64,000 bases of DNA from Patescibacteria group bacterium (GTDB lineage: Bacteria; Patescibacteriota; Patescibacteriia; UBA2591; UBA4787). Location: the NCBI GenBank assembly GCA_028715115.1, contig JAQUSN010000002.1, forward strand, positions 68,944 through 132,943, read 5' to 3'. The notes under the pieces were generated by a model. The model searched no databases. It was not told the origin of the DNA and saw nothing but the letters and a program-made list of their open reading frames with translations. Below are positions 3,578 through 47,823 of the stretch, in pieces. The number at the start of each line of letters is the position of its first letter. The first letter of the stretch is position 1. Made by a program: the position numbers and the translations under genes.

Positions 3578-3972
3578 TTTTAAGTATTGATCACGGTACA
3601 AAATATATCGGATTAGCCATTGCGGACGAAAAAATTAGGATTGCTCATCCGCGAGGATTTTTGTTAAATAAAAATTATGAATATGTTTTGGCGGAAATAA
3701 AAAATATAATCACCGAACAAAAAATATCATTAATTGTGGTCGGACAACCCCTTGGCTTGTCTGGCCAGGCGACAGAGCAAACTAAATTGGCCAACAAATT
3801 CATTGAACAACTAAGGAACGATCTAAACTTGCCCGTTGATATTTTCAATGAAACCATGACCACTAAAATGGCTGGTCAGGTAGGCGGTAAAAAAGAGAAT
3901 AGCAGCGGACACGACGCAGCTGCGGCCATAATTTTACAAGATTATTTAGATAGGCTGGGAAACAAAAATTAA
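3574..3972 (+). CDS. ruvX: Holliday-junction resolvase-like / pre-16S rRNA nuclease YqgF
   Basis: ILSIDHGTKYIGLAIAD N-terminus. C-terminal SGHDAAAAIILQDYL motif. 132 aa. 4-nt overlap with murI. Confidence 0.85.
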   Translation: MILSIDHGTKYIGLAIADEKIRIAHPRGFLLNKNYEYVLAEIKNIITEQKISLIVVGQPLGLSGQATEQTKLANKFIEQLRNDLNLPVDIFNETMTTKMAGQVGGKKENSSGHDAAAAIILQDYLDRLGNKN

Positions 3973-29200: not shown

Positions 29201-32200
29201 TTAATAATTTAAGCTGGGAGGTTGCAAACGACACTGGCGCTCAGGGCCTTGTTTATTTTGACGATCTTCAATTGGAACCAGGCACGAGCGTTTCTTCTTA
29301 TAAAGATTATGGCGCTGTAAATCAAAGTTATTTTAAAAAAGCGCCAGACTTCATGAAGTGTTATAATCGTTATAGCGACGGCACCCTTAATACTTCTGAC
29401 GACGATTTGAATTGTTCAAATTATGTTTTGGCTTGCAAAAAAAATGAAGCTGGCTGTGAAATGTATCGGCCGATTAATGGAGATCCGTCTTTACCAGCCG
29501 TGGCTCGTGACGCTGATCGTTGTCCGGCAGAATGTTCTGGTTATCAAATTTTTAAGGAATCGGCGACTAACTTCTCAAGCGGCGTCTTAGCGGTTAATTT
29601 AATTCCTTCAACTGCCCGAACTTGTGTGGCCAATGAAACAGGCTGTGAAGAGTTTACCAATTTAGATCAGTTTTCGCAGGGCGGCGAGGGTAAGGAATAT
29701 TACAATTCAATTCGACCCTGTCGCAAGCCAGATGATGGTTGTTCATATTTTTACACTTGGGTTGGATCTGACACCAGTGGTTATCAATTAAAGCGTTATT
29801 ATTTGCAGAAGAGAGGTGTTATTAAACAAGGAGAAGCAGGTTTAGGCCCGGATGAATTTTTATCAGACTTTGATGCATTAAAATTATGGGGTGAGTGCAA
29901 TAGTGAAGATGATATTTTTTCTAATCCACGCTGCAAACAATTCTTTGATAATAGTGGCAACAGTTATTTGCGACTTTATGAAAATACAATTTCTTGCTCC
30001 AACGATTGCCATCCACTCCGAAAAACAACAGCTGTAACGCAAGAATTTTGTCAGACCACTACGCAGTCGGGAGTGACCATTCCTGGCATGAGTTATAGCA
30101 ACGGCATTTGTACTTATATGGCCATTCCTTCCGAGGGTACGACTTGCAATAGAGTTAATGTTGGTTGTCGTGAATATAAGGGCAACGCTGCGGAAAATAT
30201 TCGGCAAATTTTCTTAGAAGATTTTGAAAGCGGTGTTGGCGATTGGAAGGTGGCGCCGCAAAACGCTCTTATTCGCTCCAGCACAGACTCTATTTATGCC
30301 GGCGGTCATTCGGCGCAGGTTATAAATTCGAATAAAGTTGCAACAACTATTTCAAAAGACGTATCTAATGAGATTACTGTGGGCAAAGAATATCAATTGT
30401 CTTTATGGGTTAAGGGCATCACCGGCGATATTTCTTTTGGCATTACTGGTAATCAGGTTTCGTCTCCGATAAATGTGGGAGATGTAAATGATTGGCGATT
30501 GATAACCTTCAGCCCTTATTATATTTCTACATTGCCAACAGGAACTATTGAAATAGCAATTCAGGCAACACCCAACTTAAGATCTGATGTGGCACCCGTT
30601 ACTTACAGTTTTGTCATTGATAATATTTTACTTAAAGAAGCGCAGAGCAGTCTTTATTTGATAAAAGATTCTTGGACTACGCCGCAAGTTTGCGACAAAA
30701 ACGAACAGGGTCAAAATATGCCAGGGTTTATGATCGGTTGCGCGGCCTATAAAGATACCGAGAACGCCGATAATTATTTTAAAACATTTAGTTATTTGTG
30801 TTCGGAAAAATCAGTCGGCTGCGAGGCCATGATCGAAACCCATAATTCTTCAAATCCTTTTGCCCAGAGCTTTAATGATGATAAGTATACGGTTCCGGCC
30901 GACAGTATTGAATATTTAATTAATGATGGCAAAAAAACTTGCGCGGCCGCAGACAAGGGGTGTGAACGTTTTGGTTTGCCAAGTTTGTCGGCATCTAATC
31001 AGGGCGGACAAATTACTTATAAAGTTACTGGCTGGACTGATAAATATTTAAAAAACGACCCAGATCTTTACACACAAAAACCGATTTTATGTTCTGATAA
31101 TGGTATGGCTTGCGAAGAATTTATGGCTAAAGGATCTAATACGTCGGTTTATTTTAAAGATCCGGGCGATAAGGCTTGTGAATACAAGGCTAAAATTTCC
31201 GAAACAGATGAATATGGCTGGTATAAACAGGGTACCAATGAACCGTGTTATTCAGATTCGCCGGTTAATGGATTCTATAAAATAAAAAAGACAACCGACA
31301 ACAACTATCTGGGCTTTGCCGGACTTTGTCCGAGCAGTCAATCTAGTTGTACGAAATTTACCGATCCCCTAGATAACAAATCTTATTATTATTTAAATAA
31401 CAGCAAATTAGATAAATCTTCTTGCCAAGGTGTTAGCCAAAAAGAAGGGTGTATTTTAATTAACGATACCAATCAATCAGCTAAGACTTATAGCAGCAAG
31501 GCTACTTATAATAAAAGCAAAGATAAGCAATATGCGGCCGTTGGACCGATTAATTGCGAAGTTCAAGCTGATTGTTCTAATCCCGAAAACTTAGAAACAG
31601 ATTTTTGTAAATATTGTAAAATTTGCGTTAACGGCACCAATACGGGCGGTTCTTGTTTAAATGATGGTGGTTGTCCGGGTGGATTTTGTCAGCAAATACT
31701 TAATAATGATTCTAACACAATCGTAAAGGTTCAGCGCGATAGGACTTGTGGCGAATGGTTAAGCTGTGCTGGTGGGCAGATGGTTTGGGATAAGTCGGCT
31801 AATGAATATAAAAATCAATGTACCAGTCTAATTCGTTGTCAGGGTTTGGTCGGTTCGGGCGATGAGGAGCGCTGTAGTAATTTTATTCTTGATACGCCGC
31901 AACAATTAACAGAATCTCTTTATAAGAGTCGAAATGTTTCTTGGGCTGATATGGATTATTCGGGTTATTCTTTGTACGAATTTTATCCAGTTGATACTTT
32001 AACTCCTTATAATTATGGTACGTCGGATCAACCTGACTATAAGTTAACCTATAAGGACAACATTCAAGATCATGGTGTTAATAATTTAACCTGTTCATCA
32101 ACGCAATCATGTCCGACAGGAATGGATTGTCAGACCGGACATTGTGTCATTCCTAAAACTTGCCAGGCCTATCCAGAACAAGATTCGCCATTTATTTCAG

Positions 32201-34296: not shown

Positions 34297-37155
34297 ATGA
34301 AGTTTAACTGGATAAAAAAAATCAACTTCCGCAAAGGGCTGATAATTTTATTAGTTGCCGTTTTTGTTTTGTCCATTTTACCTCGCGTCATTAATGCAGC
34401 CGACTCCGCCGAGCCAGCCGATCAATCTTCAGTTAATAGTATAGAACATCTTTCTCTAACCGTTAGCGGATTGATAACTAGCGCAGTGGTAGCGGCAATT
34501 GGTAAATTAATGGTCGTGGTTATTCGAGTTTTGGTCAGCTTGGCTCAGTATAATGATTTTCTGAAGTCGCCAGTAGTTGATATAGGCTGGAGACTGATTC
34601 GTGATCTTTGCAACATGCTATTTATAGTAATTCTTTTGGTAATTGCTTTTGCGACAGTATTACAGAGAGAACAATATTCTTATAAAAGAATGTTGGGCGC
34701 GCTGGTTCTGGCGGCGGTGTTGGTTAATTTTTCGAAATTAATCTGCGGAGTTATTATTGATTTTTCGCAAGTAGTCATGTTGACCTTTGTCAACGCGATA
34801 AAAGACGCGGCCGAAGGCAACTTTGCCGAATTGATTGGTATTAAGCAGCTTCTTTCCATGACGGCAGATCCTAGTAAACCTTTGACTATAAATTCTTTTG
34901 AATTATCAGTTACTTATTTATTGGCTTTAATTTTTTCTATTGTCGGTTTAGTTATCTTTATTGTTGTTACGGTAATAGTTCTTTTAAGAATAATTATACT
35001 TTGGTTTTTGGTCATGCTTTCACCGGTTGCTTTTATCGCCACAATTTTGCCGCGAACTAATGCTTATGCAAGTCGATGGTGGGATAAGTTTACCAATCAA
35101 GTAATCGTGGGCCCGGTTTTAATGATTTTTATTTGGTTATCGCTATCTATTGTTCAACAAAGTATGAATGACGGAGGTATGTTAAACCATTTAAAGATGG
35201 GAAGTTCTTTACAAAAAACTACTGATTTATTAGGAAATGCCGTGGGCGTGAATAATAATGCAATAGCAGCGGGCGTGGCCGATATTGGTCAGGCGCCTAA
35301 TGTTTTAGGATTTATGGTCGGTATTGCTTTGTTGGTTGGATCGGTGGCTATGGCTCAAGAATTGTCTGCCGCTGGATCTGGTATGGCCATGAACGCGGTT
35401 AATAAAATGAAACAAATCGGCGCCGGCGCTGCGGCTATGCCAGGTAGGTTGGGCGGCAAGGCCTTAAAAGCCGTAGGTCAAAGCGCCGTGGAACGATTTG
35501 AGGCAAAAACGGGTATACCTATTCAACCTAAACACTACAGAGCTGCTTGGGAGAATCGTAAAAGAATAGTACGCGGTCAAAGAGCCGCTCAAATGATGGA
35601 GAAAATGGAGGGGCATCGATTCCTTCGTCCGCCAACGGAATTCGTTAATAATATGTTTTCTACAAAAGGATGGAAAGCTGGCGTTCAGAGAATGTTTGGA
35701 GTTGATGTAGTTAAAAGAAATCAAGCTGCTGAGCTTAATAGACAGCTTGAAGAGCAAAGAGCTAAAATAAACGGAAGATTTACCAGCGATGAAATCGCTA
35801 AGAGCATTACTCAATTAGGAGGCGAGACAGGAGAAGAAGGAGAAATAGGCATGTTAGCAAGAGAACTAGAAGTCTATAAGAGTAAGTTAACCGAAGAAGA
35901 CCGAACTAAATTAGCAAAGGGAGAAAAAATAGAGGAGAAAAAACAGGCTAAAATTGATCAATTGACAGATTTAATTGATTTAAAACGAGCCCGACTGGAG
36001 GAGTTTGAAAACTATAATAGCCAAGCATGGAGAGAACAAAAAGCAAAAGAAGCTGGGGAAGCCGGGGCACAACTTGAGGGAAAAAGAGCAGAACTAAAAG
36101 CCGCAGAAGCCGAGGAAAACCCAGATCAAGCAGATCAAGAAAAAATTAAACAATTAAGAAGAGAAATCGATACATTAGAAGCCCATAAACAGCAGCTTGA
36201 CTTAGAGGCAAATATTATTATAACTCCGGAGCAAAAAGAGCAGGTTTCGGCCGAATTAGCGAAAATAGGTAAGAAATTTGGCGTTAAGATTGACGAGGCA
36301 GACGAAAAGAATCTCCAAAAACAATTAAGAGATTTATCAACGAAAAGAGATAAATTGCGCGTTGAAGGAGAGGTTATTATGCCTACCAGCATGCCATATG
36401 AAGATCAGGCCACGATAAACGCCGCTATATCTCAAGAATCGAAAAATTTACAAGGCATAGAGGATGCTGATGAGTTAGTTACTTTATATCAGGTAGCCAA
36501 AGATAAAAAAGATTTAATTAAAATGAGAGCTATTATTTTGAAATTGACCGAAAATAGAGACTTAAATGAATTACTGGATAAATTGGGGCATGAACAAAAT
36601 TATAAGGGACTTCAAGAATTAATCGAAGAAGATTTTGTTAAGCATATTGGCGGTTCGGCACAAGCGCATTATTCTTTTGGAAACGACGTTACGATGTTGA
36701 ATAAACATGAGGCGGCCTTTGAATTTAGTGGCGCCTATATAAGGGGTACTAATGGAAAATTAAGGACTACTACCGACAAGGAACACAGAAACTTTGTTTT
36801 AATAGAATCAGGTAAGCGAGACAGAGAAACCTTGTTTCGTAAAGATTGGTGGGGGTGGTTAATAGGCAAGCGAGTTGATCCGAATACTGGCAAACGAGTC
36901 CCGATTTGGACTCAAACGATTGAGCAGATCGTTAGAAGGGATTTAGGTATGTTAAAAACAGAGATAGATAAGTCTAGGCTTAATTCCGAGTTAGAATCAT
37001 GTTTCTCCCATCCAGAATTTATAGCTCATTTTCAGGATTTGCAGCAACGGTTTGTTGAAGAGGGCAGAAAGGGCGCAGTTGAACAGATAAAGGGAGTTAT
37101 TAAACACTTGCAGATGAAACAAGGCCAATATTGGCCGACTATAGAAGAAAAATAA
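34297..37155 (+). CDS. VirB6/TrbL/PrgH-like polytopic membrane protein with long charged coiled-coil C-terminal domain
   Basis: Signal peptide (..RVINA/ADS). At least 6 TM helices in the first about 330 aa. About 600-aa E/K-rich C-terminal extension. Position immediately upstream of VirB3/VirB4-like genes. Confidence 0.5.
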   Translation: MKFNWIKKINFRKGLIILLVAVFVLSILPRVINAADSAEPADQSSVNSIEHLSLTVSGLITSAVVAAIGKLMVVVIRVLVSLAQYNDFLKSPVVDIGWRLIRDLCNMLFIVILLVIAFATVLQREQYSYKRMLGALVLAAVLVNFSKLICGVIIDFSQVVMLTFVNAIKDAAEGNFAELIGIKQLLSMTADPSKPLTINSFELSVTYLLALIFSIVGLVIFIVVTVIVLLRIIILWFLVMLSPVAFIATILPRTNAYASRWWDKFTNQVIVGPVLMIFIWLSLSIVQQSMNDGGMLNHLKMGSSLQKTTDLLGNAVGVNNNAIAAGVADIGQAPNVLGFMVGIALLVGSVAMAQELSAAGSGMAMNAVNKMKQIGAGAAAMPGRLGGKALKAVGQSAVERFEAKTGIPIQPKHYRAAWENRKRIVRGQRAAQMMEKMEGHRFLRPPTEFVNNMFSTKGWKAGVQRMFGVDVVKRNQAAELNRQLEEQRAKINGRFTSDEIAKSITQLGGETGEEGEIGMLARELEVYKSKLTEEDRTKLAKGEKIEEKKQAKIDQLTDLIDLKRARLEEFENYNSQAWREQKAKEAGEAGAQLEGKRAELKAAEAEENPDQADQEKIKQLRREIDTLEAHKQQLDLEANIIITPEQKEQVSAELAKIGKKFGVKIDEADEKNLQKQLRDLSTKRDKLRVEGEVIMPTSMPYEDQATINAAISQESKNLQGIEDADELVTLYQVAKDKKDLIKMRAIILKLTENRDLNELLDKLGHEQNYKGLQELIEEDFVKHIGGSAQAHYSFGNDVTMLNKHEAAFEFSGAYIRGTNGKLRTTTDKEHRNFVLIESGKRDRETLFRKDWWGWLIGKRVDPNTGKRVPIWTQTIEQIVRRDLGMLKTEIDKSRLNSELESCFSHPEFIAHFQDLQQRFVEEGRKGAVEQIKGVIKHLQMKQGQYWPTIEEK

Positions 37156-37175: not shown

Positions 37176-39293
37176 ATGGCCTCCGAATTAATTAATTCTG
37201 AAAAATTAAATCAGCTGAAAAGGGAACTTTTTTTAGATGAAGGTTTTTATAATGGTTTAATTAAAAAATACCGTCAGAATCAAAAATTATTAGAAGATTT
37301 TTTGAAACAAAATCCTAGTTTAAGCAATATTGATCCCAGATTTTTTCAGGAAGTTCAGGATATGCTATTAATGTTAAAATGGTATTCATTTAATTATTTA
37401 ACCGACCAAGAAATCATAGAGATGTTTAGGAATCATGTTAGTGTCGTTCTAAATGATGATACTTTCCCGATTGAAGAAGCGCTGAAAATAGCTTTCTTGG
37501 GTATGTCGATATTAAACGATCGCGACGTTCTAAAGAAGCAAATTAAGGAAGCTTTATTGCAGAATAAGGAAAAAATAACCAGTCAATTAATTAAATTAAA
37601 AGATTCCAGCGTTGAGGGAACGATTGGCAATTGGTTACAGTTATATAATTCGGTTGTTGGGGTTGAGCTGGTTGATAGTTTAAAATTAGCAGAATTTTTT
37701 GTTAAAAATAAAAATTTTACGGCCCTAATGGATTTAGAGGCCGGAAAAATTAAAAAACTATTAGCTCTTTATGAAAAACTAAAATTATCATCCTTAACCC
37801 CTGAGGGCCTAGAAGAGGAAGAATTAGAAGAGGCCGGAGAAGGTCGTGTAATTTTAATGACCGGAACCGGCGCTAAAGAAGTTTATGATATCGAGGGAGA
37901 CAAAAAAGAAGGACTCGTAAAAGAAGAGCTATTAACGCCAGAAACAAAAGCAGCTATAGCCGTTGCCTCGCCGTCAACAATAAAGGAAAATTTAGTGGTT
38001 ACACCTATAGTTAATCAAGCTAAAGAGTTCGTTAAAGATTTGGAAAATATGAATTTGCCAAATTCATCCGAATTTACAAATAATGTTATCTCGACAAAAA
38101 CAGAACCTGATTTTGAAAAAATAATTCAAAATATCGTTGGACAGGCCGGCCTGTCTTTTACCGACGAGAATCTAAAGACCAGGTTTATTGGTCTCATTAC
38201 TTCTTATTTAAAAGGCGTACGAAAAGAATTAGACTTACGCGACGCTTTAATGCGCGGTGAAAAAGTGGGCGGTATGGGTTATGATCAACAAAAAATTACG
38301 GCAATTATGAATATTTTAGCCGGTAGCCGGATCGAAGAAAAAGAAAGCATGCAAAAAGAAACTACCAAACCAGCCCTAGCCGAAGGATTAACTTCGCCGA
38401 TAGAAATTATTAATCCAGTAACGCCTGATTTATCTAGAGAGCCAGGCAAATTATTAGAAGAAGGAGAAGACGCTTTATTAACTGGATCGACGCAAAAGAC
38501 ATCAGACAATATAGAAGTGCAACAAGAAAAATTTTCTTCAGGTTCGCTTGCGCCCGTTGTTGATGATAGTAAAATACCGGAAAACGTTTCTTCGTCTTTT
38601 GAAAATATAGTAACATCCGAAGAAGAGCCGATTAAACAGCCTCCGGCAGAAGATTTTTTGGCAAAATTTGACTTGTCGTCGGCATTTGGTTCTGATAAAA
38701 CCGAAGAAGCCGATCAGGGAATAAAATCACAAGAAGCAAGCGATATGAACATTGATGCTTCGATTGAAGATTTGAATTCCCAACTAGCTGCTAATAATGT
38801 TTTACCGACAGAAGAGGCTAAGCCAACAGAACTTGTCGAGCCCGCGTCTATTTCGGAACCAGAGCAGAAAATTGTCGAGCCCTCAGATGGTGCTATTAAA
38901 AATATCTATCGTGCTCCGGAGCCGGAAGAAGCGCCTCAGCCGCCCATAGAAGAGGTCAGGGTAACCCCAAGAGCCTATGGCCCGGTTGACGAGCTTAGAA
39001 GTCTAACCTTAGAAGATTGGCGACGTTGGGGAGGTGTGGGTGAAGCAGTAAAACTTATTTTAGATAAAATTAATTTATTAGCAGAAGAATCTTTGACTAA
39101 AAAATCTGAAGGCATCGCCGCCTGGAAAGGCTCAGAAATAAACAAAATGTATTTGGATATAGGTACCGAGGCAATTAATAATGGATTGTCGGTTGAGCAA
39201 GCTATTGAAAAAAGGAAAAGTGCTAATTTACCGACTTTAACCATTGACGAATTTAATGCTATTTCGGAAATAAATCAAAAACTACGTTTTTAA
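37176..39293 (+). CDS. hypothetical acidic protein (T4SS-cluster accessory)
   Basis: 705 aa, no TM, with an E/P/S-rich low-complexity central region. Sits within the operon. Confidence 0.4.
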   Translation: MASELINSEKLNQLKRELFLDEGFYNGLIKKYRQNQKLLEDFLKQNPSLSNIDPRFFQEVQDMLLMLKWYSFNYLTDQEIIEMFRNHVSVVLNDDTFPIEEALKIAFLGMSILNDRDVLKKQIKEALLQNKEKITSQLIKLKDSSVEGTIGNWLQLYNSVVGVELVDSLKLAEFFVKNKNFTALMDLEAGKIKKLLALYEKLKLSSLTPEGLEEEELEEAGEGRVILMTGTGAKEVYDIEGDKKEGLVKEELLTPETKAAIAVASPSTIKENLVVTPIVNQAKEFVKDLENMNLPNSSEFTNNVISTKTEPDFEKIIQNIVGQAGLSFTDENLKTRFIGLITSYLKGVRKELDLRDALMRGEKVGGMGYDQQKITAIMNILAGSRIEEKESMQKETTKPALAEGLTSPIEIINPVTPDLSREPGKLLEEGEDALLTGSTQKTSDNIEVQQEKFSSGSLAPVVDDSKIPENVSSSFENIVTSEEEPIKQPPAEDFLAKFDLSSAFGSDKTEEADQGIKSQEASDMNIDASIEDLNSQLAANNVLPTEEAKPTELVEPASISEPEQKIVEPSDGAIKNIYRAPEPEEAPQPPIEEVRVTPRAYGPVDELRSLTLEDWRRWGGVGEAVKLILDKINLLAEESLTKKSEGIAAWKGSEINKMYLDIGTEAINNGLSVEQAIEKRKSANLPTLTIDEFNAISEINQKLRF

Positions 39294-39368: not shown

Positions 39369-39788
39369 ATGCAGTTTATTGTTCCTCAATTTATCGACAT
39401 TGAACCTAAAATTATCGGGCCGGTTACGCCACGGCAGTTTATTATTTTAATTATTACCGGTGCGTTTATTTTTGTCGCTTATAAATTATCTGATTTTTCT
39501 TTATTTATTATCGAAGCGGTAGCTTTATTAGGCCTAGGAGGGACTCTAGCTTTTTTGAAAATAAACGGCCAACCGGTTCACTATTTTTTATTAAACTTAA
39601 CCCAGACTTTTAAACGACCAATGTTAAGAATTTGGAGAAAAGATTTTATTATGGCAAAAGAATTAGCGGTTAAAGAAAAAGTAAAGATAGCGCCGGTAGC
39701 TATTCCGCGTAAAACGCTTTCTAATGCCCGGCTTTCAAATTTATCAATTTTAGTTGATACGGGCGGAATGTATCATGAGGAGGTTTGA
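39369..39788 (+). CDS. VirB3/PrgI-like small two-TM T4SS protein
   Basis: 139 aa. Two TM helices around PRQFIILIITGAFIFVAYKL and FIIEAVALLGLGGTLAFL. Directly precedes the VirB4 N-domain, as PrgI precedes PrgJ. Confidence 0.45.
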   Translation: MQFIVPQFIDIEPKIIGPVTPRQFIILIITGAFIFVAYKLSDFSLFIIEAVALLGLGGTLAFLKINGQPVHYFLLNLTQTFKRPMLRIWRKDFIMAKELAVKEKVKIAPVAIPRKTLSNARLSNLSILVDTGGMYHEEV

Positions 39789-39799
39789 TTTAAATTTTT

Positions 39800-40468
39800 A
39801 TGAGTAAAACTGCAGCCATTTCATCAACACAAAAATATTTAGACATCTCCGAGGTGCGAAGTGATTGTATTATTTTAAAAGACGGAACCATGCGAGCCGT
39901 GCTTTTGGTTTCTTCAATCAACTTTTCCTTAAAGTCAGAGGACGAGCAAAAGGCGACCGTTTCGGCTTATGTTCAATTTTTAAATACCTTGGAGCACCCC
40001 TTACAAATAATAATCCAGTCTCGTCGCCTGAATATCGAGAATTATTTAGTTGACCTAAATACCCGCCAAAAAGAGCAAACCAACAATTTATTAAAAGCTC
40101 AAATGGCCGAATATATTGATTTTATAAAAGAATTAGTCGATTTGGGAGAAATAATGACCAAGAAATTTTATGTTGTCGTGCCCTACAGTCCTATGGGTGA
40201 TAAAAAATTAAAATTTTTCTCCCGCCTATCGAGCGCTTTTACGGCCGGATCAGCTATTAGACTGAAGCGCGAGCGATTTGAGGCCTATCGAGAGCAATTA
40301 TTTAGAAGAGTTGATAATGTTAGTTCGGCGTTGTCGAGCATGGGGTTAAGAGTCGTGCCACTTGATACTCAAAGTTTAATTGAATTATTATATAATAGTT
40401 ACAATCCGGTCGAATCGGCAGTTCAAAAATTAGCCGAAATAAATAAGCTTAACATCGAAACGATTTAA
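39800..40468 (+). CDS. VirB4/TraE/PrgJ N-terminal domain, separate ORF ending in an in-frame TAA
   Basis: LDISEVRSDCIILKDGTMRAVLLVSSINFSLKSEDEQKATVSAYVQFLNTLEHPLQIIIQSRRLNIENYL matches the CagE/TrbE/VirB4 N-terminal pattern. Same reading frame as the next ORF. Confidence 0.55.
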   Translation: MSKTAAISSTQKYLDISEVRSDCIILKDGTMRAVLLVSSINFSLKSEDEQKATVSAYVQFLNTLEHPLQIIIQSRRLNIENYLVDLNTRQKEQTNNLLKAQMAEYIDFIKELVDLGEIMTKKFYVVVPYSPMGDKKLKFFSRLSSAFTAGSAIRLKRERFEAYREQLFRRVDNVSSALSSMGLRVVPLDTQSLIELLYNSYNPVESAVQKLAEINKLNIETI

Positions 40469-40471
40469 TTT

Positions 40472-42442
40472 ATGGCTATTCGTCCATCAGCTATTAATCG
40501 CGCCACTGCAATGCCAGAGAAGAAACCGACTCCTCAACAAAAGGAGCAGGTTAAAATTGTTCAAGAAAAGCAAATAAAAAATCTTTTAGATTCGGAAGAG
40601 GCATATTTAAAGGGACTAATGTCGGTTCGCGACTTGATTGCGCCGGCCGCGCTTAAGGTTAATCCTTCCTTTTTGCAATTAGGAGATAAATATATTAGAA
40701 CGCTTTTCGTGACCGCTTATCCTCGTTATATTTCTGTAGGTTGGTTTGCGCCAGTAATAAATTTTAATGCTTCTCTTGATGTGGCCATGTTTTTCTATCC
40801 GGTTAATTCGGGTGTGGTTTTGAAACAACTGCAAAAGAGAGTGGGCAATATTGAAGCGGAATTATCAGCTGAGCGTGATAAAGGGATGCCTCGAGATCCG
40901 ATTAAAGAGACCGCTTTACAAGATATTGAGAAGCTTCGCGACGACCTAACGACGGGAGTAGAACATTATTTTCAATTTGCTCTTTATGTAACCATGTATG
41001 CGAATTCATTGAAAGACCTTGATTCAATGACGGAAAAAATAGAAGCGCTATTCGGTTCAAAATTGATTTACACCAGACAAGTATTTTACCAAGCCGAACA
41101 AGGATTTAATTCGACCTTGCCTTTAGCTAGCGACGAGCTGATGGTGACCTTTAACATGAGTTCTTCTCCCTGTGCCTCATCTTTTCCTTTTATCTCCGCT
41201 GACGTTACTTCAGATACCGGGATTTTATATGGTATTAACAGGCACAACAATGGCCTGATTATCTTTGATAGATTTAGTATGCAGAATGCTAATATGAATG
41301 TTTTTGCTACTAGTGGCGCTGGCAAAAGCTACGCTATTAAGCTCGAGGTTTTGCGCTCAATGATGTTTGGCACCGATGTAATTATTATTGACCCAGAAAG
41401 AGAATATAAATATTTATCAGATGCCGTAGGAGGAACATATGTGAATATTTCTTTATCTTCGGATAGCAAAATTAATCCTTTTGATTTGCCCAGGGCTACT
41501 TCGGCCGATATGACTGCAGCTGACATAATTCGTTCGGCAGTTATTACTATTAAAGGATTGTTAAGAATTATGATTGGCAAGACCGACGAAAGAGGAACAA
41601 AGCAGTTTTCGCCGGAAGAGGATTCAATTATTGATCGCGCTCTACTTGAGACTTATGCTAAAAGAGATATTACGCCATCTGCTGACTTAAGCCAAATTAC
41701 TGAAATGCCGACCATGTCTGATTTGCAAAATATTTTAGAGGGCATGGAGGGCGGGGCCCAGTTGTCAGAAAGGCTGAAAAAGTATACCGAAGGCACCTTT
41801 GCCGGACTATTAAATAATCCGACCAACGTTAAAGTTAATAATCAATTAATAGTTTTTTCGGTTCGCGACTTAGAAGATGAGCTTCGGCCGATAGCTATTT
41901 ATACTATTGTCAATTATATTTGGAACATCGTCCGTTCTGAACTTAAAAAAAGAATTCTCGTCATTGATGAGGCTTGGTGGTTAATGCAGCAAGAGGATTC
42001 GGCAAAATTTATTTATGCTTTAGTCAAACGTTGCCGAAAATATTATCTAGGTGTGACTACGATCACTCAAGACGTTAACGATTTTTTGGTTTCTCCTTAT
42101 GGCAAAGCTATTGTAAATAACTCGGCGCTGCAACTTTTATTAAAACAAGCTCCGGCGGCGATTGATTTAGTGGCGCAAACATTCATGTTAACCGAAGGAG
42201 AAAAATATTTACTATTAGAGTGCGGGGTAGGTGAAGGGATTTTTTTCGCTGGCGCCAAACACGCAGCCATTAAGATTATTGCTTCGTACTCCGAAGATCA
42301 ATTAATTACTTCTGATCCGCGGCAAATCTTAGAAATCGAACAGGCCAAAAGGGAGTTTTCTCAAAAAGAGGCTGGCGATGCCGTGGTTGATCAGGGCGGG
42401 CAAAAAGAATTTGTTAAGGGTGTTGGTGATTTAGAAATTTAA
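40472..42442 (+). CDS. VirB4/TraE/PrgJ-family T4SS ATPase, C-terminal ATPase domain
   Basis: Walker A ATSGAGKSY. IIDPEREYKYL..GGTYVNISL...INPFDL. Walker B RILVIDEAWW. This is the canonical VirB4 motif series. Confidence 0.85.
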   Translation: MAIRPSAINRATAMPEKKPTPQQKEQVKIVQEKQIKNLLDSEEAYLKGLMSVRDLIAPAALKVNPSFLQLGDKYIRTLFVTAYPRYISVGWFAPVINFNASLDVAMFFYPVNSGVVLKQLQKRVGNIEAELSAERDKGMPRDPIKETALQDIEKLRDDLTTGVEHYFQFALYVTMYANSLKDLDSMTEKIEALFGSKLIYTRQVFYQAEQGFNSTLPLASDELMVTFNMSSSPCASSFPFISADVTSDTGILYGINRHNNGLIIFDRFSMQNANMNVFATSGAGKSYAIKLEVLRSMMFGTDVIIIDPEREYKYLSDAVGGTYVNISLSSDSKINPFDLPRATSADMTAADIIRSAVITIKGLLRIMIGKTDERGTKQFSPEEDSIIDRALLETYAKRDITPSADLSQITEMPTMSDLQNILEGMEGGAQLSERLKKYTEGTFAGLLNNPTNVKVNNQLIVFSVRDLEDELRPIAIYTIVNYIWNIVRSELKKRILVIDEAWWLMQQEDSAKFIYALVKRCRKYYLGVTTITQDVNDFLVSPYGKAIVNNSALQLLLKQAPAAIDLVAQTFMLTEGEKYLLLECGVGEGIFFAGAKHAAIKIIASYSEDQLITSDPRQILEIEQAKREFSQKEAGDAVVDQGGQKEFVKGVGDLEI

Positions 42443-42456
42443 TATAAAATTATTTT

Positions 42457-43020
42457 ATGAAAAAAGTAATCATCATTATTATCATTATACTTATAATCGG
42501 CGTTATTTTTTATTATTTAAATTGGCGCGGCAAAAACACCGCAAATCCTTTAATCCCAAGTAACAACCAGACCCAAATTAATGAACAGAACAATGATTTT
42601 ACGAATGAGGGCCAAACTGACAATACGCCCGTAGACCCAACTGCTAAATTAGAAAACGATTTAACCGTGATGGCTCGCGCTTTTATTGAACAATACGGCT
42701 CATGGTCAAACCAATCTACCTTTTCCAATTTTACAGACCTTTATCCTTATATGACTAGCTCATTAATGGCGCAAACTCAAAACCTAGTTAACCAGAAAAT
42801 AGCCGAAAAAAAATTATCCTTGAGTTATTATGGCATTACTACCAAAATATTATCTTTAGAATTGAAAAATTTGGCCGAGCCGACTGGCGAATTTTTTGCC
42901 AATATCCAACAACAAGAAACAAAAGGCGACACTACTACGGTTTTATACAAAACAGTAAAATTGGTTTTATTAAAAGAAGGGTCTCAATGGAAGGTCAATG
43001 ACATCATTTTTAATCCATAA
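42457..43020 (+). CDS. N-terminally anchored secreted protein, possible VirB8/PrgL/TcpC-like (NTF2-like) T4SS component
   Basis: One N-terminal TM, then a domain of about 140 aa ending ..EGSQWKVNDIIFNP. Size and position after VirB4 fit PrgL-like proteins. No diagnostic motif. Confidence 0.3.
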   Translation: MKKVIIIIIIILIIGVIFYYLNWRGKNTANPLIPSNNQTQINEQNNDFTNEGQTDNTPVDPTAKLENDLTVMARAFIEQYGSWSNQSTFSNFTDLYPYMTSSLMAQTQNLVNQKIAEKKLSLSYYGITTKILSLELKNLAEPTGEFFANIQQQETKGDTTTVLYKTVKLVLLKEGSQWKVNDIIFNP

Positions 43021-43031
43021 TTTTATTAATT

Positions 43032-43985
43032 ATGGGTGACTTTGTTGATCCAAAAATAAGAGAGGAAATAGAACGAAAGGATGCTTCGGATGCTGAAAAA
43101 TATAATCTTGACACTTCTGATCCTGACTATCTAGCTGCTCAAAAGCGCGGCAGAGGAGAAGATGAAGAATTTGAAGAATCAATTAGGCAAATAAAAGAGC
43201 AACGCCAAGCCAGGGAATTAAAACAACAAAGACTTAAAGAAGCTTCTAGTCGAAAAGCAGCAATAAATCGACAAGTGCAAACTCCCGAAATGCAACAGAC
43301 ATATCGGGACTTCAAAGATCATAAAGGTTACTCTGATTTTAGTGAAGAAAGAGCCAGGGCCAGAGACAATAAAGAATATATGAATAAGGCCCGTGCATTA
43401 TCTAACGTTGCCGTTGACGCAGCGGCAACAAGCATAAAGCGAGGCGATATTAAAGGAGCCATCACTGCTGGCCTAAAGGCTGCCGGAGAGATGGGAGGTC
43501 AAATAGCAACTGCCAAAATTTTGCAGTTCATGTGGGAAAATTTTTATTATGTGTTGCCAATATTTTATATAGATTTTCATTTTATAATGCGGTATATTGC
43601 TGGCTCTAAGTTGTTTTGTCGCCTAGGACAGGAATGGCTTATGAAAGGCAGTGGTAAGGCTGCTTCTGGAGCGCAAAAAGCATCAACAGCCGAACAAGGG
43701 TTAGAGGCGGCAAAATCTTCTACAACGGGAGCACAAGCGACTGCAGGACAAACAAGCGGAGATTTAAACAAGCTAGCTGATCAAATCGCCGAAGCCCCTA
43801 ATAAATTTTTGGAAATTATCGAAATCGCTGCTTTAATGGTTTGTAATTTGATAATTGGCGCTGCAATTTATTTAATCCTGATATATATTTTTATCATGAC
43901 TCATCCTTGCCAGTCAGCGGCTATTGTTACTCATTCCGAGGGCATTTTGAAGGCCTTTAAAAGTATTGGTATTAATTGTAAATAA
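43032..43985 (+). CDS. hypothetical protein, charged N-terminus and hydrophobic C-terminal segments (T4SS-cluster accessory)
   Basis: 317 aa. C-terminal TM-like IIEIAALMVCNLIIGAAIYLILIYIFIM. Overlaps the next ORF. Confidence 0.35.
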   Translation: MGDFVDPKIREEIERKDASDAEKYNLDTSDPDYLAAQKRGRGEDEEFEESIRQIKEQRQARELKQQRLKEASSRKAAINRQVQTPEMQQTYRDFKDHKGYSDFSEERARARDNKEYMNKARALSNVAVDAAATSIKRGDIKGAITAGLKAAGEMGGQIATAKILQFMWENFYYVLPIFYIDFHFIMRYIAGSKLFCRLGQEWLMKGSGKAASGAQKASTAEQGLEAAKSSTTGAQATAGQTSGDLNKLADQIAEAPNKFLEIIEIAALMVCNLIIGAAIYLILIYIFIMTHPCQSAAIVTHSEGILKAFKSIGINCK

Positions 43986-45207
43986 TTGTATGTTAATTAA
44001 TAAAAACATTCTCGGCATATTTATCTTTATTCTTTTATTGTTTGTTTTTTTAATTGGCGGCGCTCATATTATTAAGGCGCAAACTACTTTCACCCCCTCG
44101 GTCGGGATAGGAGATAGTAATTTTCAAGCTGGTTCGGGCGTAGAAATTACAGGACTATCAATAGCTGATTATATTATTGCCGTTTATAAATGGTCAATTA
44201 GGGTTATCGCGATTTTAGCCGTTATTGTTATCATGGTGGCTGGCTTTCGTTGGGTTAGCGCTGCCGGAAATGCATCAGTAATCGGCCAAGCGAAGAATCA
44301 GATGATCGATGCATTTATCGGATTAATTTTAGTGATTGGCGCTAATTTATTGTTATATTTTATTAATCCGGCCTTGGTGAGGTTTAACGATCTTTCAATA
44401 ACGCACATAAAGAAGGTTAGTTTGGATAATTATGATTTTCCGATAGAGCAAGCCATTATGCCTAATATCTGGGACGAAAGCGAAAAACAGCCAAATATTA
44501 AGGCTAGCGCCTGTGGAATACAGGCCGTGGATCAGGAAGATGGGAGAACTTATCTTGGGGTCAAATGTTCGTCGGCCGGAGTGCCGGGTGCTTCCATTAG
44601 GAAGCCTTGTGTTTTACAATTTAGTTTAACATCACAGGACTATCAAGATGATATTAATAAAAAAGCAGATATAGCCGAATATTTGGCAGATATTTATTAT
44701 CTTGGCAAAGATTCTGGTTATAACGTAGAGTCTGGTTGTATTAGTAGGGGGTCGGTATTTAAATACATGATCCCGATTTACGGATTAATTGAGGCAGCGA
44801 CTACGACGTATGGGAAGGTAAGTTTGCCCTTCAGAGATGATCCAACCGTAATGTACGATTTTGCTCTTGATCCATCAACTAATTGCGGCGTTAAAAAAGG
44901 AGAAGGAGATATTATAAAAAATAAGATTGGGATGAAAGTTGGGATAAAATGTCCTAATTCGAATTCAACGTGTGTCTTTGCTCTGGTTAATGTTACTGAT
45001 GATAAAATAAATAAGACTGCCGTTAAATTTTATAGTTTTTGTAAACCAGATAGCGGAATGCCTATGTGTGAACCAAGTGAGAGAAGAGTAAATTGTGAAA
45101 GATATACTAATTGTAAAGTATCAGGATGCACAAATGAGATAGACGCATCCGGAAAATCAATTTGTTGCCAGCAGGCAGTTGATAGGGCGGTTTTGAGGAA
45201 TTTTTAG
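43966..45207 (+). CDS. pilin-like (VirB2/TrbC-type two-TM hairpin) module fused to Cys-rich extracellular domain; paralog of the N-terminal module of the 46510 protein
   Basis: Module YIIAVYKWSIRVIAILAVIVIMVAGFRWVSAAGNASVIGQAKNQMIDAFIGLILVIGANLLLYFINP (about 44160..44390). A likelier start is the ATG at 43990, just after the upstream stop. Confidence 0.5.
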   Translation: MVLIVNNCMLINKNILGIFIFILLLFVFLIGGAHIIKAQTTFTPSVGIGDSNFQAGSGVEITGLSIADYIIAVYKWSIRVIAILAVIVIMVAGFRWVSAAGNASVIGQAKNQMIDAFIGLILVIGANLLLYFINPALVRFNDLSITHIKKVSLDNYDFPIEQAIMPNIWDESEKQPNIKASACGIQAVDQEDGRTYLGVKCSSAGVPGASIRKPCVLQFSLTSQDYQDDINKKADIAEYLADIYYLGKDSGYNVESGCISRGSVFKYMIPIYGLIEAATTTYGKVSLPFRDDPTVMYDFALDPSTNCGVKKGEGDIIKNKIGMKVGIKCPNSNSTCVFALVNVTDDKINKTAVKFYSFCKPDSGMPMCEPSERRVNCERYTNCKVSGCTNEIDASGKSICCQQAVDRAVLRNF

Positions 45208-45225: not shown

Positions 45226-46506
45226 ATGAATAAAAGAATACTATTGATAGTTTTGTTTTTTGTGGCGGTTATAGCCATAGCTTTGGTTTTGTATTTTTTT
45301 ATTTTTAGGACCAATATTTCCGCGCCGCCGATTAATGAGGCGCAAAACTTAATCAACGAGCAAACCGGCAAATTGCCAGTAAGTCGTGAACAATGGGAGG
45401 GCATGACTATAAATGAGCGGGCTAGCGCCAATTTACCTTTATACGAATGGCAGGAAGCGGCGCCTGCTCAATCTTCAGAAGCACAGCCGGTAGTTTTGCA
45501 AGTCTCTGAGATAGCCAACGGCGGTAAAACCATTATTAATCCTGTTTCCAATGATTCGGCGCAAAGTGCCACATTGTCTTTCGATGGACAAAATAGCTTA
45601 TTCTATAACTCAACTGATGGTAAATTCTATCAGGTAGATAAGAACGGCATTAAAACGTCTTTAAGCAATCAAGTTTTTCATAATGTCAGTAATGTTAATT
45701 GGGCGCCAAATAAGGACAGAGCGATTATCGAATATCCCGATGGCTTTAAAATAATGTATGATTTTAAAAATCAGAAACAATACACCCTGCCGAACAATTG
45801 GGAAGACTTTTCTTGGGATTCTCGCGGGAATCAAATTGTTTTCAAGGCTACTTCGCAATATTCACAAAATAATTGGTTAGCCGTAGCTAATTCCGATGGA
45901 ACCGGGGCGAGGGCCATAGAAAATATGGGTGATAACGGCGATAAGGTTACCGTCTCCTGGTCGCCCAATAATCAAGTCGTTGCTTTTTCGGCTACTGGTC
46001 AAGCGCAATCAGCTTGGCAGCAAGAGGTTTTATTAATCGGCCAAAATGGAGAAAATTTTAAATCTTTGATTATCGATGGCCGTGGTTTTGAAACTCAATG
46101 GAATCCGCGAGGCGATAGCATAGCTTATAGTGTTTATAGTGCCGACAGCGGCTATAAACCAACATTATATTTAGTAAAAGCGCAGGGAGATGAAATCGGT
46201 AACGATAAAATTAACACAGGCCTTAACACCTGGTCTCATAAATGCGCTTATAATTCTAGCGGCAGTTATCTTTTTTGCGCCGTTCCTAAAAGTTTACCAG
46301 AGGGGTCGGGGATGATGAGCGAGTTAGCTACTAATCTGCAAGATAATTTTTATAAAATTAACGCCATTACCGGCGAAAAGACATTTTTAGCCGAAGGAGC
46401 AATGGGTGGTTATGATGTTTCCCAGCTATTTATTTCGGGAGACGATGGTACGTTATATTTTATTGATAAAAATTCAGGAATATTAAGATACATAAAATTA
46501 AGATAG
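45226..46506 (+). CDS. TolB-like beta-propeller protein with N-terminal TM anchor
   Basis: Repeating blade motifs WAPNKDRAI, FSWDSRGNQIVF, VSWSPNNQVVAF, TQWNPRGDSIAY. Confidence 0.5.
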   Translation: MNKRILLIVLFFVAVIAIALVLYFFIFRTNISAPPINEAQNLINEQTGKLPVSREQWEGMTINERASANLPLYEWQEAAPAQSSEAQPVVLQVSEIANGGKTIINPVSNDSAQSATLSFDGQNSLFYNSTDGKFYQVDKNGIKTSLSNQVFHNVSNVNWAPNKDRAIIEYPDGFKIMYDFKNQKQYTLPNNWEDFSWDSRGNQIVFKATSQYSQNNWLAVANSDGTGARAIENMGDNGDKVTVSWSPNNQVVAFSATGQAQSAWQQEVLLIGQNGENFKSLIIDGRGFETQWNPRGDSIAYSVYSADSGYKPTLYLVKAQGDEIGNDKINTGLNTWSHKCAYNSSGSYLFCAVPKSLPEGSGMMSELATNLQDNFYKINAITGEKTFLAEGAMGGYDVSQLFISGDDGTLYFIDKNSGILRYIKLR

Positions 46507-46509
46507 ATT

Positions 46510-47823
46510 GTGATCAATTTTTTCTTAAAAAATAGATTTTTTAGAACTTCCAAGCTCGGTTATCTCTTGGTGGTTTTTGTCTTAATGGGTTTTTTGTTTT
46601 TTTTATTTCAAAACGTGCTGGCTATTAGCTGTTGCTATGGTTCTAATATCGAGCCAAGGTGCAAAGATATTACTACTGGATTTTGTCCACTGCCATATAC
46701 CATGCAGGCGAAAGATACTACTTGCGCTAATTGTACTGATTGTTTTTGCCAGGGCAGCTTCGCGCCAGCCGATGCTACTGATCCTGTGCCAACAAAAAAT
46801 ACAGAACAAAAAACTCCAGATATTATCCCTACTCTTCAAGTTCAAATTCCCGGTTTTTCTGGATTTTCCAAAGATATCCAAGTTTGTTTAGAGGAGGGCA
46901 AGACTTTAGACGAGTGTCAAAAGGGCAAAACAGGCTATTCAATTCCATGGATAGGGGAATATTTAATCGCTGTTTATAAATGGGCGGTTAGAGCTATCGC
47001 TATTTTGGCCGTGATAATTATTATGTGGGGCGGGTTGCAGTGGATATTAGCTCGTGGCAATTCCTCGGCCATTACGGAAGCTAAATCAAAAATAAGTTCA
47101 GCTTTGATCGGCATAGTAATTATCGTTGGTATGAATGTTTTTTTGTCGGCTATTAACCCCAATTTAACAATCTTAAAACCTATTACCCTGGGCAAGATTG
47201 AACCAATAATTATCACTCCATTAGATTCAGACAAAGAAGAGGGCGGTATTAGTGGTCCTAATGCCGGTACCAGCATAGATATGGGGGGCAATTGTTTTCC
47301 TGTTAGTGCGGATAGCATCAAACAAACCCAATGGAATTTTGGTAATAGCCGTAGTAGCGGCAAACGTTGTCATGCTGGCATTGATATTTTAACCAATTGG
47401 CGGTCGGGTAATGATAGTGTAGTGGCTATAGGGGACGGTCGCGTTTTGGCTGTTTACGGTTTTTATACTTGTAGTACCGAAACCGGTAAGGGTGGACACG
47501 TTAGTGCAATTTTTATTGATCACAAAAAATTAAATTATACAGTTTTATATGGTGAAGTAGATGATGATAGTATTCTGGTAAAAAATGGAGATGAAGTGAG
47601 GGCTGGTCAACTTTTAGGCCAAGCAAGCCGTTGTGGGATGTTACACCTTGAAATGTATGAAGCCGGTGCCAGAGGAAATAAAACATGGTATCCTCCAAAT
47701 GGACAAAGAGTTGAGAATCAACCTAATTATTGCCAACAAAATTTTTTAAATACAAAGCCGTCAACATTATTGGACCCAACGGCCACTTTAAAATATTTAG
47801 ATGGCAAAAGATGTAGTATTTAA
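46510..47823 (+). CDS. pilin-like module fused to M23 (LytM-type) peptidase domain; putative cell-wall hydrolase of the T4SS-like system
   Basis: N-terminal TM plus a Cys-rich segment. Module YLIAVYKWAVRAIAILAVIIIMWGGLQWILARGNSSAITEAKSKISSALIGIVIIVGMNVFLSAINP. M23 core HAGIDI ... GGHVSAIFIDH ... GMLHLEMYE (HxxxD present; second motif reads HLE rather than HxH). Confidence 0.55.
   Translation: MINFFLKNRFFRTSKLGYLLVVFVLMGFLFFLFQNVLAISCCYGSNIEPRCKDITTGFCPLPYTMQAKDTTCANCTDCFCQGSFAPADATDPVPTKNTEQKTPDIIPTLQVQIPGFSGFSKDIQVCLEEGKTLDECQKGKTGYSIPWIGEYLIAVYKWAVRAIAILAVIIIMWGGLQWILARGNSSAITEAKSKISSALIGIVIIVGMNVFLSAINPNLTILKPITLGKIEPIIITPLDSDKEEGGISGPNAGTSIDMGGNCFPVSADSIKQTQWNFGNSRSSGKRCHAGIDILTNWRSGNDSVVAIGDGRVLAVYGFYTCSTETGKGGHVSAIFIDHKKLNYTVLYGEVDDDSILVKNGDEVRAGQLLGQASRCGMLHLEMYEAGARGNKTWYPPNGQRVENQPNYCQQNFLNTKPSTLLDPTATLKYLDGKRCSI

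What the first reader, a model, noticed from the sequence alone, without database searches (positions are those of the whole stretch)
40460..40480. VirB4 split into N-domain and ATPase-domain ORFs by a single in-frame TAA
The 39800..40468 ORF (VirB4 N-terminal domain) and the 40472..42442 ORF (VirB4 ATPase domain) are in the same reading frame. Only one stop codon (TAA at 40466..40468) and one Phe codon separate them before the ATG. Together they total about 880 aa, which is the normal VirB4 length. Three explanations are possible: a genuine two-polypeptide VirB4 (domain fission), stop-codon readthrough or recoding, or a sequencing/assembly error or recent pseudogenising mutation in an essential T4SS ATPase.
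Basis: seen in the sequence. Interest (0 to 1): 0.7.

Follow-up and report, generated by a model that had tools for sequence, protein, structure and literature searches.

The report
Ordinary two-gene TrsD plus VirB4 arrangement
The apparent "stop codon inside VirB4" is the normal boundary between two separate, conserved genes (a small TrsD-like protein and the VirB4 ATPase) of the chromosomal type IV secretion system of Patescibacteria; this arrangement is already published, and the shared reading frame is a coincidence.

Summary
ORF1 (39800..40468, 222 aa) ends in TAA. One TTT codon follows, then ORF2 (40472..42442, 656 aa) starts in the same frame.

This is not a broken gene.
- In 78 of 80 related species, the ORF1 and ORF2 homologues are separate genes. 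The gaps range from -47 to 511 nt, and only 28% share a frame (chance is 33%).
- All 240 closest protein homologues are standalone: ORF1 homologues are 200-237 aa and ORF2 homologues are 611-671 aa.
- The junction DNA is identical in four independent assemblies.
- Three other gene junctions in the window have the same 3-nt in-frame geometry, and one has the identical TAATTTATG.
- Almost no gene in this genome has a Shine-Dalgarno, so its absence here means nothing.

ORF1 is a TrsD/TraC-like protein homologous to the first ~200 residues of single-chain VirB4. ORF2 keeps ~245 N-domain residues plus the ATPase domain, so the break lies inside the N-terminal domain.

The same split occurs on Bacillota and haloarchaeal plasmids, and a rare natural fusion (898 aa) exists. 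Quinonero-Coronel et al. 2025 already describe TrsD next to VirB4 as the most abundant T4SS component in Patescibacteria.

Verdict: genuine two-polypeptide arrangement, already known, low interest.

The parts
39800..40468 (+). TrsD/TraC-like gene (222 aa). It is a free-standing homologue of the first ~200 residues of single-chain VirB4 and has no TM-like segment.
40466..40471 (+). Gene boundary: TAA stop of the TrsD-like gene plus a 3-nt spacer (TTT) before the VirB4 ATG.
   Evidence: Sequence read. The identical TAATTTATG junction occurs between unrelated genes at 3972/3976. In 78 related loci the stop is TAA in 59, TAG in 11 and TGA in 8, with gaps of -47 to 511 nt.
40472..42442 (+). VirB4-type T4SS ATPase gene (656 aa). 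It holds the rest of the N-terminal domain (~1-245) plus the C-terminal ATPase domain (245-613).
   Evidence: NCBIfam CD1110-family VirB4 scores 338 bits against a cutoff of 325, aligning to model positions 175-729 of 752. Pfam P-loop_TraG at 3.5e-28. PDB 4AG5 VirB4 CTD at 2.4e-45 over residues 245-613. The 120 closest homologues are all 611-671 aa.
41312..41329 (+). Walker A motif (SGAGKS, ORF2 residues 281-286).
   Evidence: sequence
41954..41971 (+). Walker B motif (ILVIDE, ORF2 residues 495-500).
   Evidence: sequence
39369..39788 (+). PrgI-like (VirB3 analogue) small membrane protein gene, immediately upstream.
   Evidence: Pfam PrgI at E 7.6e-5, 23.6 bits, which is below the cutoff of 27. 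It has hydrophobic segments. The same PrgI-like gene precedes the natural fusion P0248.
34297..37155 (+). VirB6/TrbL-like polytopic membrane protein gene (952 aa).
   Evidence: Pfam TrbL at E 0.0029, below cutoff. The match is weak.
43966..45207 (+). Gene with a T4SS pilin (VirB2-like) domain.
   Evidence: Pfam T4SS_pilin at E 1.3e-5, 25.6 bits against a cutoff of 26.6.
46510..47823 (+). Gene with a T4SS pilin domain plus a Peptidase_M23 domain. It is the last gene of the cluster.
   Evidence: Pfam T4SS_pilin 26.8 bits (cutoff 26.6) and Peptidase_M23 33.3 bits.

Best explanation
These are two separate, co-transcribed genes of a chromosomal Patescibacteria type IV secretion system. One encodes a TrsD/TraC-like protein, which corresponds to the N-proximal ~200 residues of a single-chain VirB4. 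The other encodes the VirB4 ATPase proper. Each is translated as its own polypeptide.

The VirB4 ATG at 40472 is a conserved start. It is most likely used either by ribosomes terminating 3 nt upstream (translational coupling) or by the SD-independent initiation on A/T-rich leaders that is the rule in this genome. This step is inferred.

The TrsD-like protein probably binds the remaining N-terminal region of VirB4 in trans, completing the VirB4 N-terminal domain. That domain would dock the ATPase hexamer onto the PrgI/VirB3-like and VirB6-like membrane components. This step is also inferred. It rests on homology, the conserved gene order, the natural fusion, and the R388 structures, in which the VirB4 N-terminal domain contacts VirB3 and VirB8.

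The shared reading frame in this genome is a one-in-three coincidence.
For: Shown:
- ORF1 has 3924 homologues. The best 120, down to 56% identity, are all 200-237 aa.
- The 120 closest ORF2 homologues are all 611-671 aa.
- Of 150 representatives of 50%-identity clusters, 149 are standalone.
- In 80 loci from different GTDB species, 78 have a stop after the ORF1 homologue and an ORF2 homologue downstream. Gaps run from -47 to 511 nt, the same frame occurs in 22 of 78, a gap of exactly 3 occurs in 5, and the ORF2 N-terminus is conserved as MAI.PS / MFNP.
- The junction DNA is identical in GCA_028686935.1 and in Logan assemblies of SRR22315507, SRR22315508 and SRR22315509.
- ORF1 and ORF2 map collinearly, without overlap, onto single-chain VirB4 models. 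On CD1110 they cover 2-105 then 175-729. On VirB4_plasma they cover 102-233 then 265-892.
- The ORF1 model matches only TrwK/VirB4 in the PDB.
- The same split occurs on Pontibacillus, B. thuringiensis, Clostridium and Haladaptatus plasmids. There the ATPase partner starts at the same model position, 172-188.
- A natural fusion, P0248 (898 aa), joins both parts through a ~95-aa P/A-rich linker. It was found in three independent runs and aligns end to end with the 894-position VirB4_plasma model.
- Almost none of the 47 + strand genes examined in the window has an SD, and three other junctions have the same geometry.

Literature: PMC12102498 describes TrsD as a remote homologue of the VirB4 N-terminal portion. 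It counts 2,272 homologues in Patescibacteria, 1,664 of them next to virB4, and reports the gene as essential in Ca. S. epibionticum ML1. VirB4 N-terminal domain contacts with VirB3 and VirB8 are described in PMC12857230.
Against: - No direct evidence exists for the protein products or for a physical TrsD-VirB4 complex.
- The attempt to model the natural fusion gave a low-confidence model (pLDDT 56), so docking could not be assessed.
- TrsD homologues are not always next to VirB4. L026 is one example, and the paper reports the same for Gracilibacteria. An independent role is therefore possible.
- The ORF1 score for the curated TrsD model is far below its cutoff (36.9 against 200 bits).
- The structural similarity to TrwK is distant (TM 0.42, 14-17% identity).
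Confidence: 0.88

Rival explanations
1. Stop-codon readthrough or recoding at TAA 40466-40468 produces a full-length ~880-aa VirB4, either as the main product or as a functional minor one.
For: The two ORFs are in frame and separated by one sense codon. A natural fused relative shows that a single chain is viable.
Against: - In relatives the two genes share a frame in only 22 of 78 cases. They are separated by up to 511 nt or overlap, so no conserved readthrough mechanism can exist.
- TAA followed by T is, from general knowledge of bacterial termination, an efficient stop context.
- The 121 nt around the stop fold no better than shuffles (z = -0.66).
- The same TAATTTATG junction separates unrelated genes at 3972/3976.
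- The ORF2 start methionine and N-terminus are conserved.
Confidence: 0.02
2. A sequencing or assembly error, or a recent nonsense mutation, has pseudogenised a formerly single VirB4 gene.
For: Only the in-frame geometry and the combined length of about 880 aa.
Against: - The sequence is identical across the junction in four independent assemblies from different runs.
- Both ORFs end and start exactly where hundreds of diverged homologues do.
- All three stop codons occur at this boundary among relatives.
- The only fused relative joins the parts through a long low-complexity linker that is absent here.
Confidence: 0.01
3. The TrsD-like protein is a real separate protein but does not act as the missing VirB4 N-terminal module. 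Instead it has an independent role, for example as an assembly factor, regulator or substrate adaptor of the T4SS.
For: - Some TrsD homologues are not adjacent to virB4: L026 and Gracilibacteria.
- About a third of representatives carry long P/A/Q/T-rich tails with no counterpart in VirB4.
- The literature assigns no function to TrsD.
Against: - ORF1 and ORF2 map collinearly and without overlap onto single-chain VirB4 models.
- A natural fusion exists.
- Adjacency is conserved in 78 of 80 species.
- The only structural match is TrwK/VirB4.
Confidence: 0.09

Closest known systems
TrsD + VirB4 of the Patescibacteria chromosomal T4SS (Quinonero-Coronel et al. 2025, Microb Genom, PMC12102498; essential in Ca. 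Southlakia epibionticum ML1)
   Same: The same phylum: the identical proteins are annotated 'Patescibacteria group bacterium'. The same gene pair sits next to PrgI/VirB3-like, VirB6-like and VirB2-like pilin genes. The cluster is chromosomal, lies among housekeeping genes, and has no relaxase in the window.
   Different: Nothing of substance. This is one more member. The in-frame 3-nt junction is an individual accident, shared by 5 of 78 relatives.
TrsD/TrsE of Staphylococcus plasmid pGO1 (= TraD/TraE of pSK41), the MPF-FATA subclass prototype
   Same: A small ~200-aa protein encoded directly upstream of a ~650-aa VirB4-type ATPase. ORF1 hits the NCBIfam TrsD/TraD model at E 3e-9.
   Different: The score is far below the family cutoff (36.9 against 200 bits). 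Here the system is chromosomal, lacks a relaxase, and is thought to have been co-opted for epibiotic growth rather than conjugation. The pGO1 locus itself was not examined here.
Single-chain VirB4 (TrwK of R388, PDB 7O41/8RTB; CD1110-family and Mbov_0397-family VirB4)
   Same: ORF1 plus ORF2 together cover the full-length models collinearly. The ORF1 fold matches TrwK. The ORF2 C-terminal domain matches 4AG5 and TrwK.
   Different: There are two polypeptides instead of one. The break falls inside the N-terminal domain, at about model position 172-207, and not at the NTD/CTD boundary.
Split pairs on Bacillota and haloarchaeal plasmids (Pontibacillus NZ_CP062975, B. thuringiensis pLM3, C. beijerinckii NZ_CP107023, Haladaptatus NZ_CP119792)
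   Same: A small ORF1-like gene (237-337 aa) is immediately followed by a 621-666-aa VirB4-like ATPase. In the two pairs scanned (Pontibacillus and Haladaptatus), the ATPase starts at the same model position.
   Different: The genes overlap by 4-26 nt or are 2 nt apart, so they are in different frames. They are plasmid-borne, and identity to ORF1 is 23-32%.

Membership tests
VirB4 T4SS ATPase (ORF2) | Score at or above the curated cutoff of a VirB4 family model | tested here: met
   NF045971 CD1110-family VirB4: 338 bits against a cutoff of 325, E 1e-100.
VirB4 T4SS ATPase (ORF2) | Walker A and Walker B NTPase motifs in a C-terminal domain similar to a solved VirB4 CTD | tested here: met
   SGAGKS at 281-286 and ILVIDE at 495-500. 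PDB 4AG5 at 2.4e-45 over residues 245-613.
VirB4 T4SS ATPase (ORF2) | Encoded within a cluster of other T4SS components | tested here: met
   PrgI-like, TrbL/VirB6-like and two T4SS_pilin genes lie nearby. Most of these hits are at or just below Pfam cutoffs.
VirB4 T4SS ATPase (ORF2) | Complete N-terminal domain on the same chain | tested here: not met
   ORF2 aligns from position 175 of the CD1110 model, 207 of VirB4_CagE and 265 of VirB4_plasma. The first part of each model is matched by ORF1 instead.
TrsD/TraD-like (TraC-like, PF26593) protein (ORF1) | Significant match to the family model | tested here: inconclusive
   NF041427 gives E 3.2e-9, but 36.9 bits is below the cutoff of 200. A precomputed PF26593 TraC-like hit is listed for the identical protein, but the local Pfam scan returned nothing.
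TrsD/TraD-like (TraC-like, PF26593) protein (ORF1) | Free-standing ~200-aa protein homologous to the N-terminal portion of VirB4 | tested here: met
TrsD/TraD-like (TraC-like, PF26593) protein (ORF1) | Gene immediately upstream of virB4 | tested here: met
   True in the window and in 78 of 80 related species.
Programmed stop-codon readthrough / recoding site | In-frame relation of the two ORFs conserved among relatives | tested here: not met
   22 of 78 are in frame, against a chance level of 33%. Gaps range from -47 to 511 nt.
Programmed stop-codon readthrough / recoding site | Stimulatory RNA structure or leaky stop context | tested here: not met
   Fold z-score of -0.66 for 40440-40560. The stop is TAA followed by T.
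Programmed stop-codon readthrough / recoding site | Detectable fused protein product | not testable with these tools
   Needs proteomics or ribosome profiling.
Pseudogene / assembly artefact | Stop absent in independent data or in close relatives | tested here: not met
   The junction is identical in four independent assemblies, and every relative examined has a stop there.

The most novel reading that the evidence does not exclude
Two novel readings remain open.
1. Because the two genes happen to be in frame here, rare readthrough of the TAA could give a trace of single-chain VirB4. The natural fusion P0248 shows that such a chain is tolerated.
2. More broadly, the detached TrsD module, often extended by disordered P/A-rich tails, might be a regulated, exchangeable adaptor that controls when the VirB4 motor engages the membrane channel in epibiotic Patescibacteria.

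Neither reading is excluded, and neither has positive evidence.
Probability: 0.08. Interest if true: 0.4.

Novelty: already known. Interest (0 to 1): 0.08.

Why it matters
It matters mainly for annotation. A short in-frame gap between a TrsD/TraC-like gene and virB4 should not be flagged as a pseudogene, a frameshift or a recoding event in Patescibacteria or other monoderm T4SS loci. The lack of an SD is uninformative in SD-poor genomes.

The biological question that remains open is what the detached VirB4 N-terminal module does, and why it is kept separate across Patescibacteria, Bacillota and Archaea. That question is already posed in the literature and is not specific to this locus.

Tried and rejected
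- Sequence searches of ORF1 against PDB chains, both as a single sequence and as a profile, found nothing meaningful. Only fold comparison found TrwK.
- A 'virtual fusion' of ORF1+ORF2 could not be modelled.
- Modelling the natural fusion P0248 instead gave mean pLDDT 56, with the N-terminal part mostly below 50. It was therefore not used for any inference, and no fold search was run on it.
- The afdb50 fold library was unavailable.
- The main text of Guglielmini 2014 does not mention TrsD by name. The statement about homology to the VirB4 N-terminus is taken from PMC12102498, which cites it.
- The pELF plasmid paper uses TraD for a VirD4-like protein and is irrelevant here.
- L026 looked like an exception without ORFs downstream. 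It has no N runs and no Rfam hit, but it does have a long unrelated ORF running off the locus.
- dN/dS was not attempted. The closest relative for which DNA was fetched is only 73% identical in protein (L001), so synonymous sites would be saturated.
Full report
**1. Observation**

The sequence reads ...GAA ACG ATT TAA TTT ATG GCT ATT.... ORF1 runs 39800..40468 (222 aa) and ORF2 runs 40472..42442 (656 aa). Both are in the same frame, separated by TAA plus one TTT codon.

**2. What the two ORFs are**

ORF2 is a VirB4-type ATPase.
- It scores 338 bits on the NCBIfam CD1110-family VirB4 model, above the curated cutoff of 325.
- It hits Pfam P-loop_TraG.
- Residues 245-613 match the solved VirB4 C-terminal domain 4AG5 at 2.4e-45.
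- It has Walker A (SGAGKS, 281-286) and Walker B (ILVIDE, 495-500) motifs.

ORF2 residues ~24-245 align to the middle of full-length VirB4 models, from position 175 of CD1110, 207 of VirB4_CagE and 265 of VirB4_plasma. ORF2 is therefore more than 'the ATPase domain'.

ORF1 is a TrsD/TraC-like protein.
- It hits the NCBIfam TrsD/TraD model (E 3e-9, below its cutoff).
- It also hits the N-terminal parts of two single-chain VirB4 models: VirB4_plasma positions 102-233 and CD1110 positions 2-105.
- The identical database protein carries a precomputed PF26593 'TraC-like' hit. My local Pfam scan did not reproduce it.
- The 14 best Foldseek hits are all TrwK chains, and nothing else scores below E 0.5.

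The pair thus maps collinearly and without overlap onto one VirB4. The break lies inside the N-terminal domain, about 170-200 residues into a canonical VirB4.

**3. Is the split real and conserved?**

- ORF1 has 3924 homologues at E <= 1e-3. The best 120 (56-100% identity) are all 200-237 aa.
- The best 120 ORF2 homologues (68-100% identity) are all 611-671 aa.
- A profile search of 1.84 billion cluster representatives returned 150 best hits. Of these, 149 are standalone (132-443 aa), and about a third carry P/A/Q/T-rich low-complexity tails.
- I fetched 80 loci from different GTDB species and analysed the junctions. In 78 of them a stop follows the ORF1 homologue and an ORF2 homologue lies downstream.
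- In those 78, the stop is TAA in 59, TAG in 11 and TGA in 8. The distance to the ORF2 start ranges from -47 to 511 nt.
- The two genes share a frame in 22 of 78 cases (28%, chance 33%), and the gap is exactly 3 nt in 5 cases.
- The ORF2 N-terminus is conserved as a start (MAI.PS..., MFNP...).
- Of the two remaining loci, one ends 116 nt after the stop. The other (L026) has an unrelated long ORF downstream.

**4. Error or pseudogene?**

The exact 222-aa protein is encoded on 8 contigs. The four loci I retrieved are one NCBI MAG (GCA_028686935.1) and Logan assemblies of three separate runs (SRR22315507, SRR22315508, SRR22315509). All four are base-for-base identical to the window across the junction. 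An assembly artefact is therefore excluded as far as assemblies can show.

**5. Readthrough or recoding?**

- The frame relation is random among relatives.
- The stop is TAA followed by T.
- The 121 nt around the stop fold no better than shuffled sequence (z = -0.66).
- Within this window the same design recurs between unrelated genes. 3-nt in-frame gaps occur at 3972/3976 (the identical TAATTTATG), 34293/34297 and 46506/46510, and 14 of 46 consecutive gene pairs are in frame.
- Almost none of the 47 + strand genes examined has an SD. Start codons sit in A/T-rich leaders. The missing SD before 40472 is therefore the norm and not a clue.

**6. Wider distribution**

The same pair occurs well outside Patescibacteria. 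In each case a small ORF1-like gene is directly followed by a ~620-666-aa VirB4-like ATPase.
- Pontibacillus plasmid: 274 + 621 aa, 11-nt overlap.
- B. thuringiensis pLM3: 237 + 645 aa, 26-nt overlap.
- Clostridium beijerinckii plasmid: 335 + 658 aa.
- Haloarchaeal Haladaptatus plasmid: 337 + 666 aa, 4-nt overlap.

In the Pontibacillus and Haladaptatus pairs, which were scanned, the ATPase partners begin at CD1110-model positions 172 and 188; window ORF2 begins at 175.

A natural fusion also exists. P0248 (898 aa) has a TrsD-like part at 13-223 (37% identical to ORF1), a ~95-aa P/A-rich linker, and a VirB4 part at 320-890 (48% identical to ORF2). It aligns as one stretch to positions 92-893 of the 894-position VirB4_plasma model. 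It is found in three independent runs, preceded by a PrgI-like gene. This 'Rosetta stone' fusion supports a functional unit of the two proteins.

**7. Context**

The pair lies in a + strand cluster that contains:
- a 2671-aa protein;
- a VirB6/TrbL-like protein;
- a PrgI/VirB3-like membrane protein directly upstream;
- two genes with a T4SS pilin domain, one of them fused to an M23 peptidase.

Housekeeping genes flank the cluster: KsgA and POR subunits upstream, and RadA, MreC, PBP2, GyrB, NusG, L11 and L1 downstream. The cluster is therefore chromosomal, and no relaxase was seen in the window.

**8. Comparison with the literature**

Quinonero-Coronel et al. 2025 (PMC12102498) describe exactly this arrangement.
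- They found 2,272 homologues, 1,664 of them associated with VirB4.
- TrsD is otherwise known from the pGO1 subclass of MPF-FATA.
- It has no assigned function.
- It is listed as essential in Ca. Southlakia epibionticum ML1.

The R388 structures show the VirB4 N-terminal domain contacting VirB3 and VirB8 (review PMC12857230). That is the basis for my inference that the TrsD-like protein completes this domain in trans and helps dock the ATPase on the PrgI-like and VirB6-like membrane proteins. This docking step is inferred and not shown. My attempt to model it through the natural fusion gave a low-confidence model (pLDDT 56), which I did not use.

**9. Verdict**

- The 'genuine two-polypeptide VirB4' reading is correct, with the boundary placed inside the N-terminal domain.
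- Readthrough and error or pseudogene are rejected.
- The in-frame geometry is a coincidence.
- The arrangement is already known and widespread, so interest is low.

Noticed in passing
window 1899-61499 (all + strand gene starts): Almost none of the 47 + strand genes examined has a Shine-Dalgarno motif. Starts sit in A/T-rich leaders such as ttaatttATG. Four junctions are 3-nt in-frame gaps (3972/3976, 34293/34297, 40468/40472, 46506/46510).
   Followed up: partly
window 39777-39783: The only strong SD-like sequence found (GAGGAGG, duplex -11 kcal/mol) lies inside the 3' end of the PrgI-like gene, 16 nt before the ORF1 ATG. That spacing is too long for a classic SD. It may be coding sequence only.
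   Followed up: no
window 26278-34293: A giant 2671-aa ORF heads the T4SS cluster. Its only Pfam hit is a CBM_4_9 carbohydrate-binding domain at residues 1311-1394. It is joined to the VirB6-like gene by a 3-nt in-frame gap and may be a surface or adhesin protein.
   Followed up: no
window 46510-47823 and 43966-45207: Two proteins of more than 400 aa contain a T4SS pilin (VirB2-like) domain. One of them also carries a Peptidase_M23 domain, an unusual pilin-hydrolase combination.
   Followed up: no
window 37176-39293, 42457-43020, 43032-43985, 45226-46506: Four genes inside the T4SS cluster have no significant family match in Pfam. The first three were also scanned against NCBIfam. The only hit anywhere is a weak CD3337/EF1877 hit for 42457-43020.
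   Followed up: partly
L087 3001-5697 (also L088, L089): A natural single-chain fusion of the TrsD-like and VirB4 parts (P0248, 898 aa), with a ~95-aa Pro/Ala-rich linker. It is present in three independent sequencing runs and is the only fused form among 150 cluster representatives.
   Followed up: partly
L026 4001-8660: In single-cell genome AM-312-K06 the TrsD homologue is followed by a long unrelated ORF (frame +2, only 4 stops in 1331 codons) that runs off the locus. No VirB4 lies within 4 kb.
   Followed up: partly
proteins P0122-P0269: About a third of the TrsD-like cluster representatives carry C-terminal tails of 50-220 aa rich in Pro, Ala, Gln and Thr. This is the same kind of sequence that forms the linker in the fused form.
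   Followed up: partly
L090 2644-5654 (Haladaptatus plasmid NZ_CP119792): The same TrsD-like + VirB4-like gene pair occurs on a haloarchaeal plasmid, so the split spans Bacteria and Archaea.
   Followed up: partly
window 39800-40465: The local Pfam-A hmmscan returned no family for ORF1. The protein database nevertheless lists a precomputed PF26593 (TraC-like) hit for the identical sequence. The model may be missing from the local copy.
   Followed up: no
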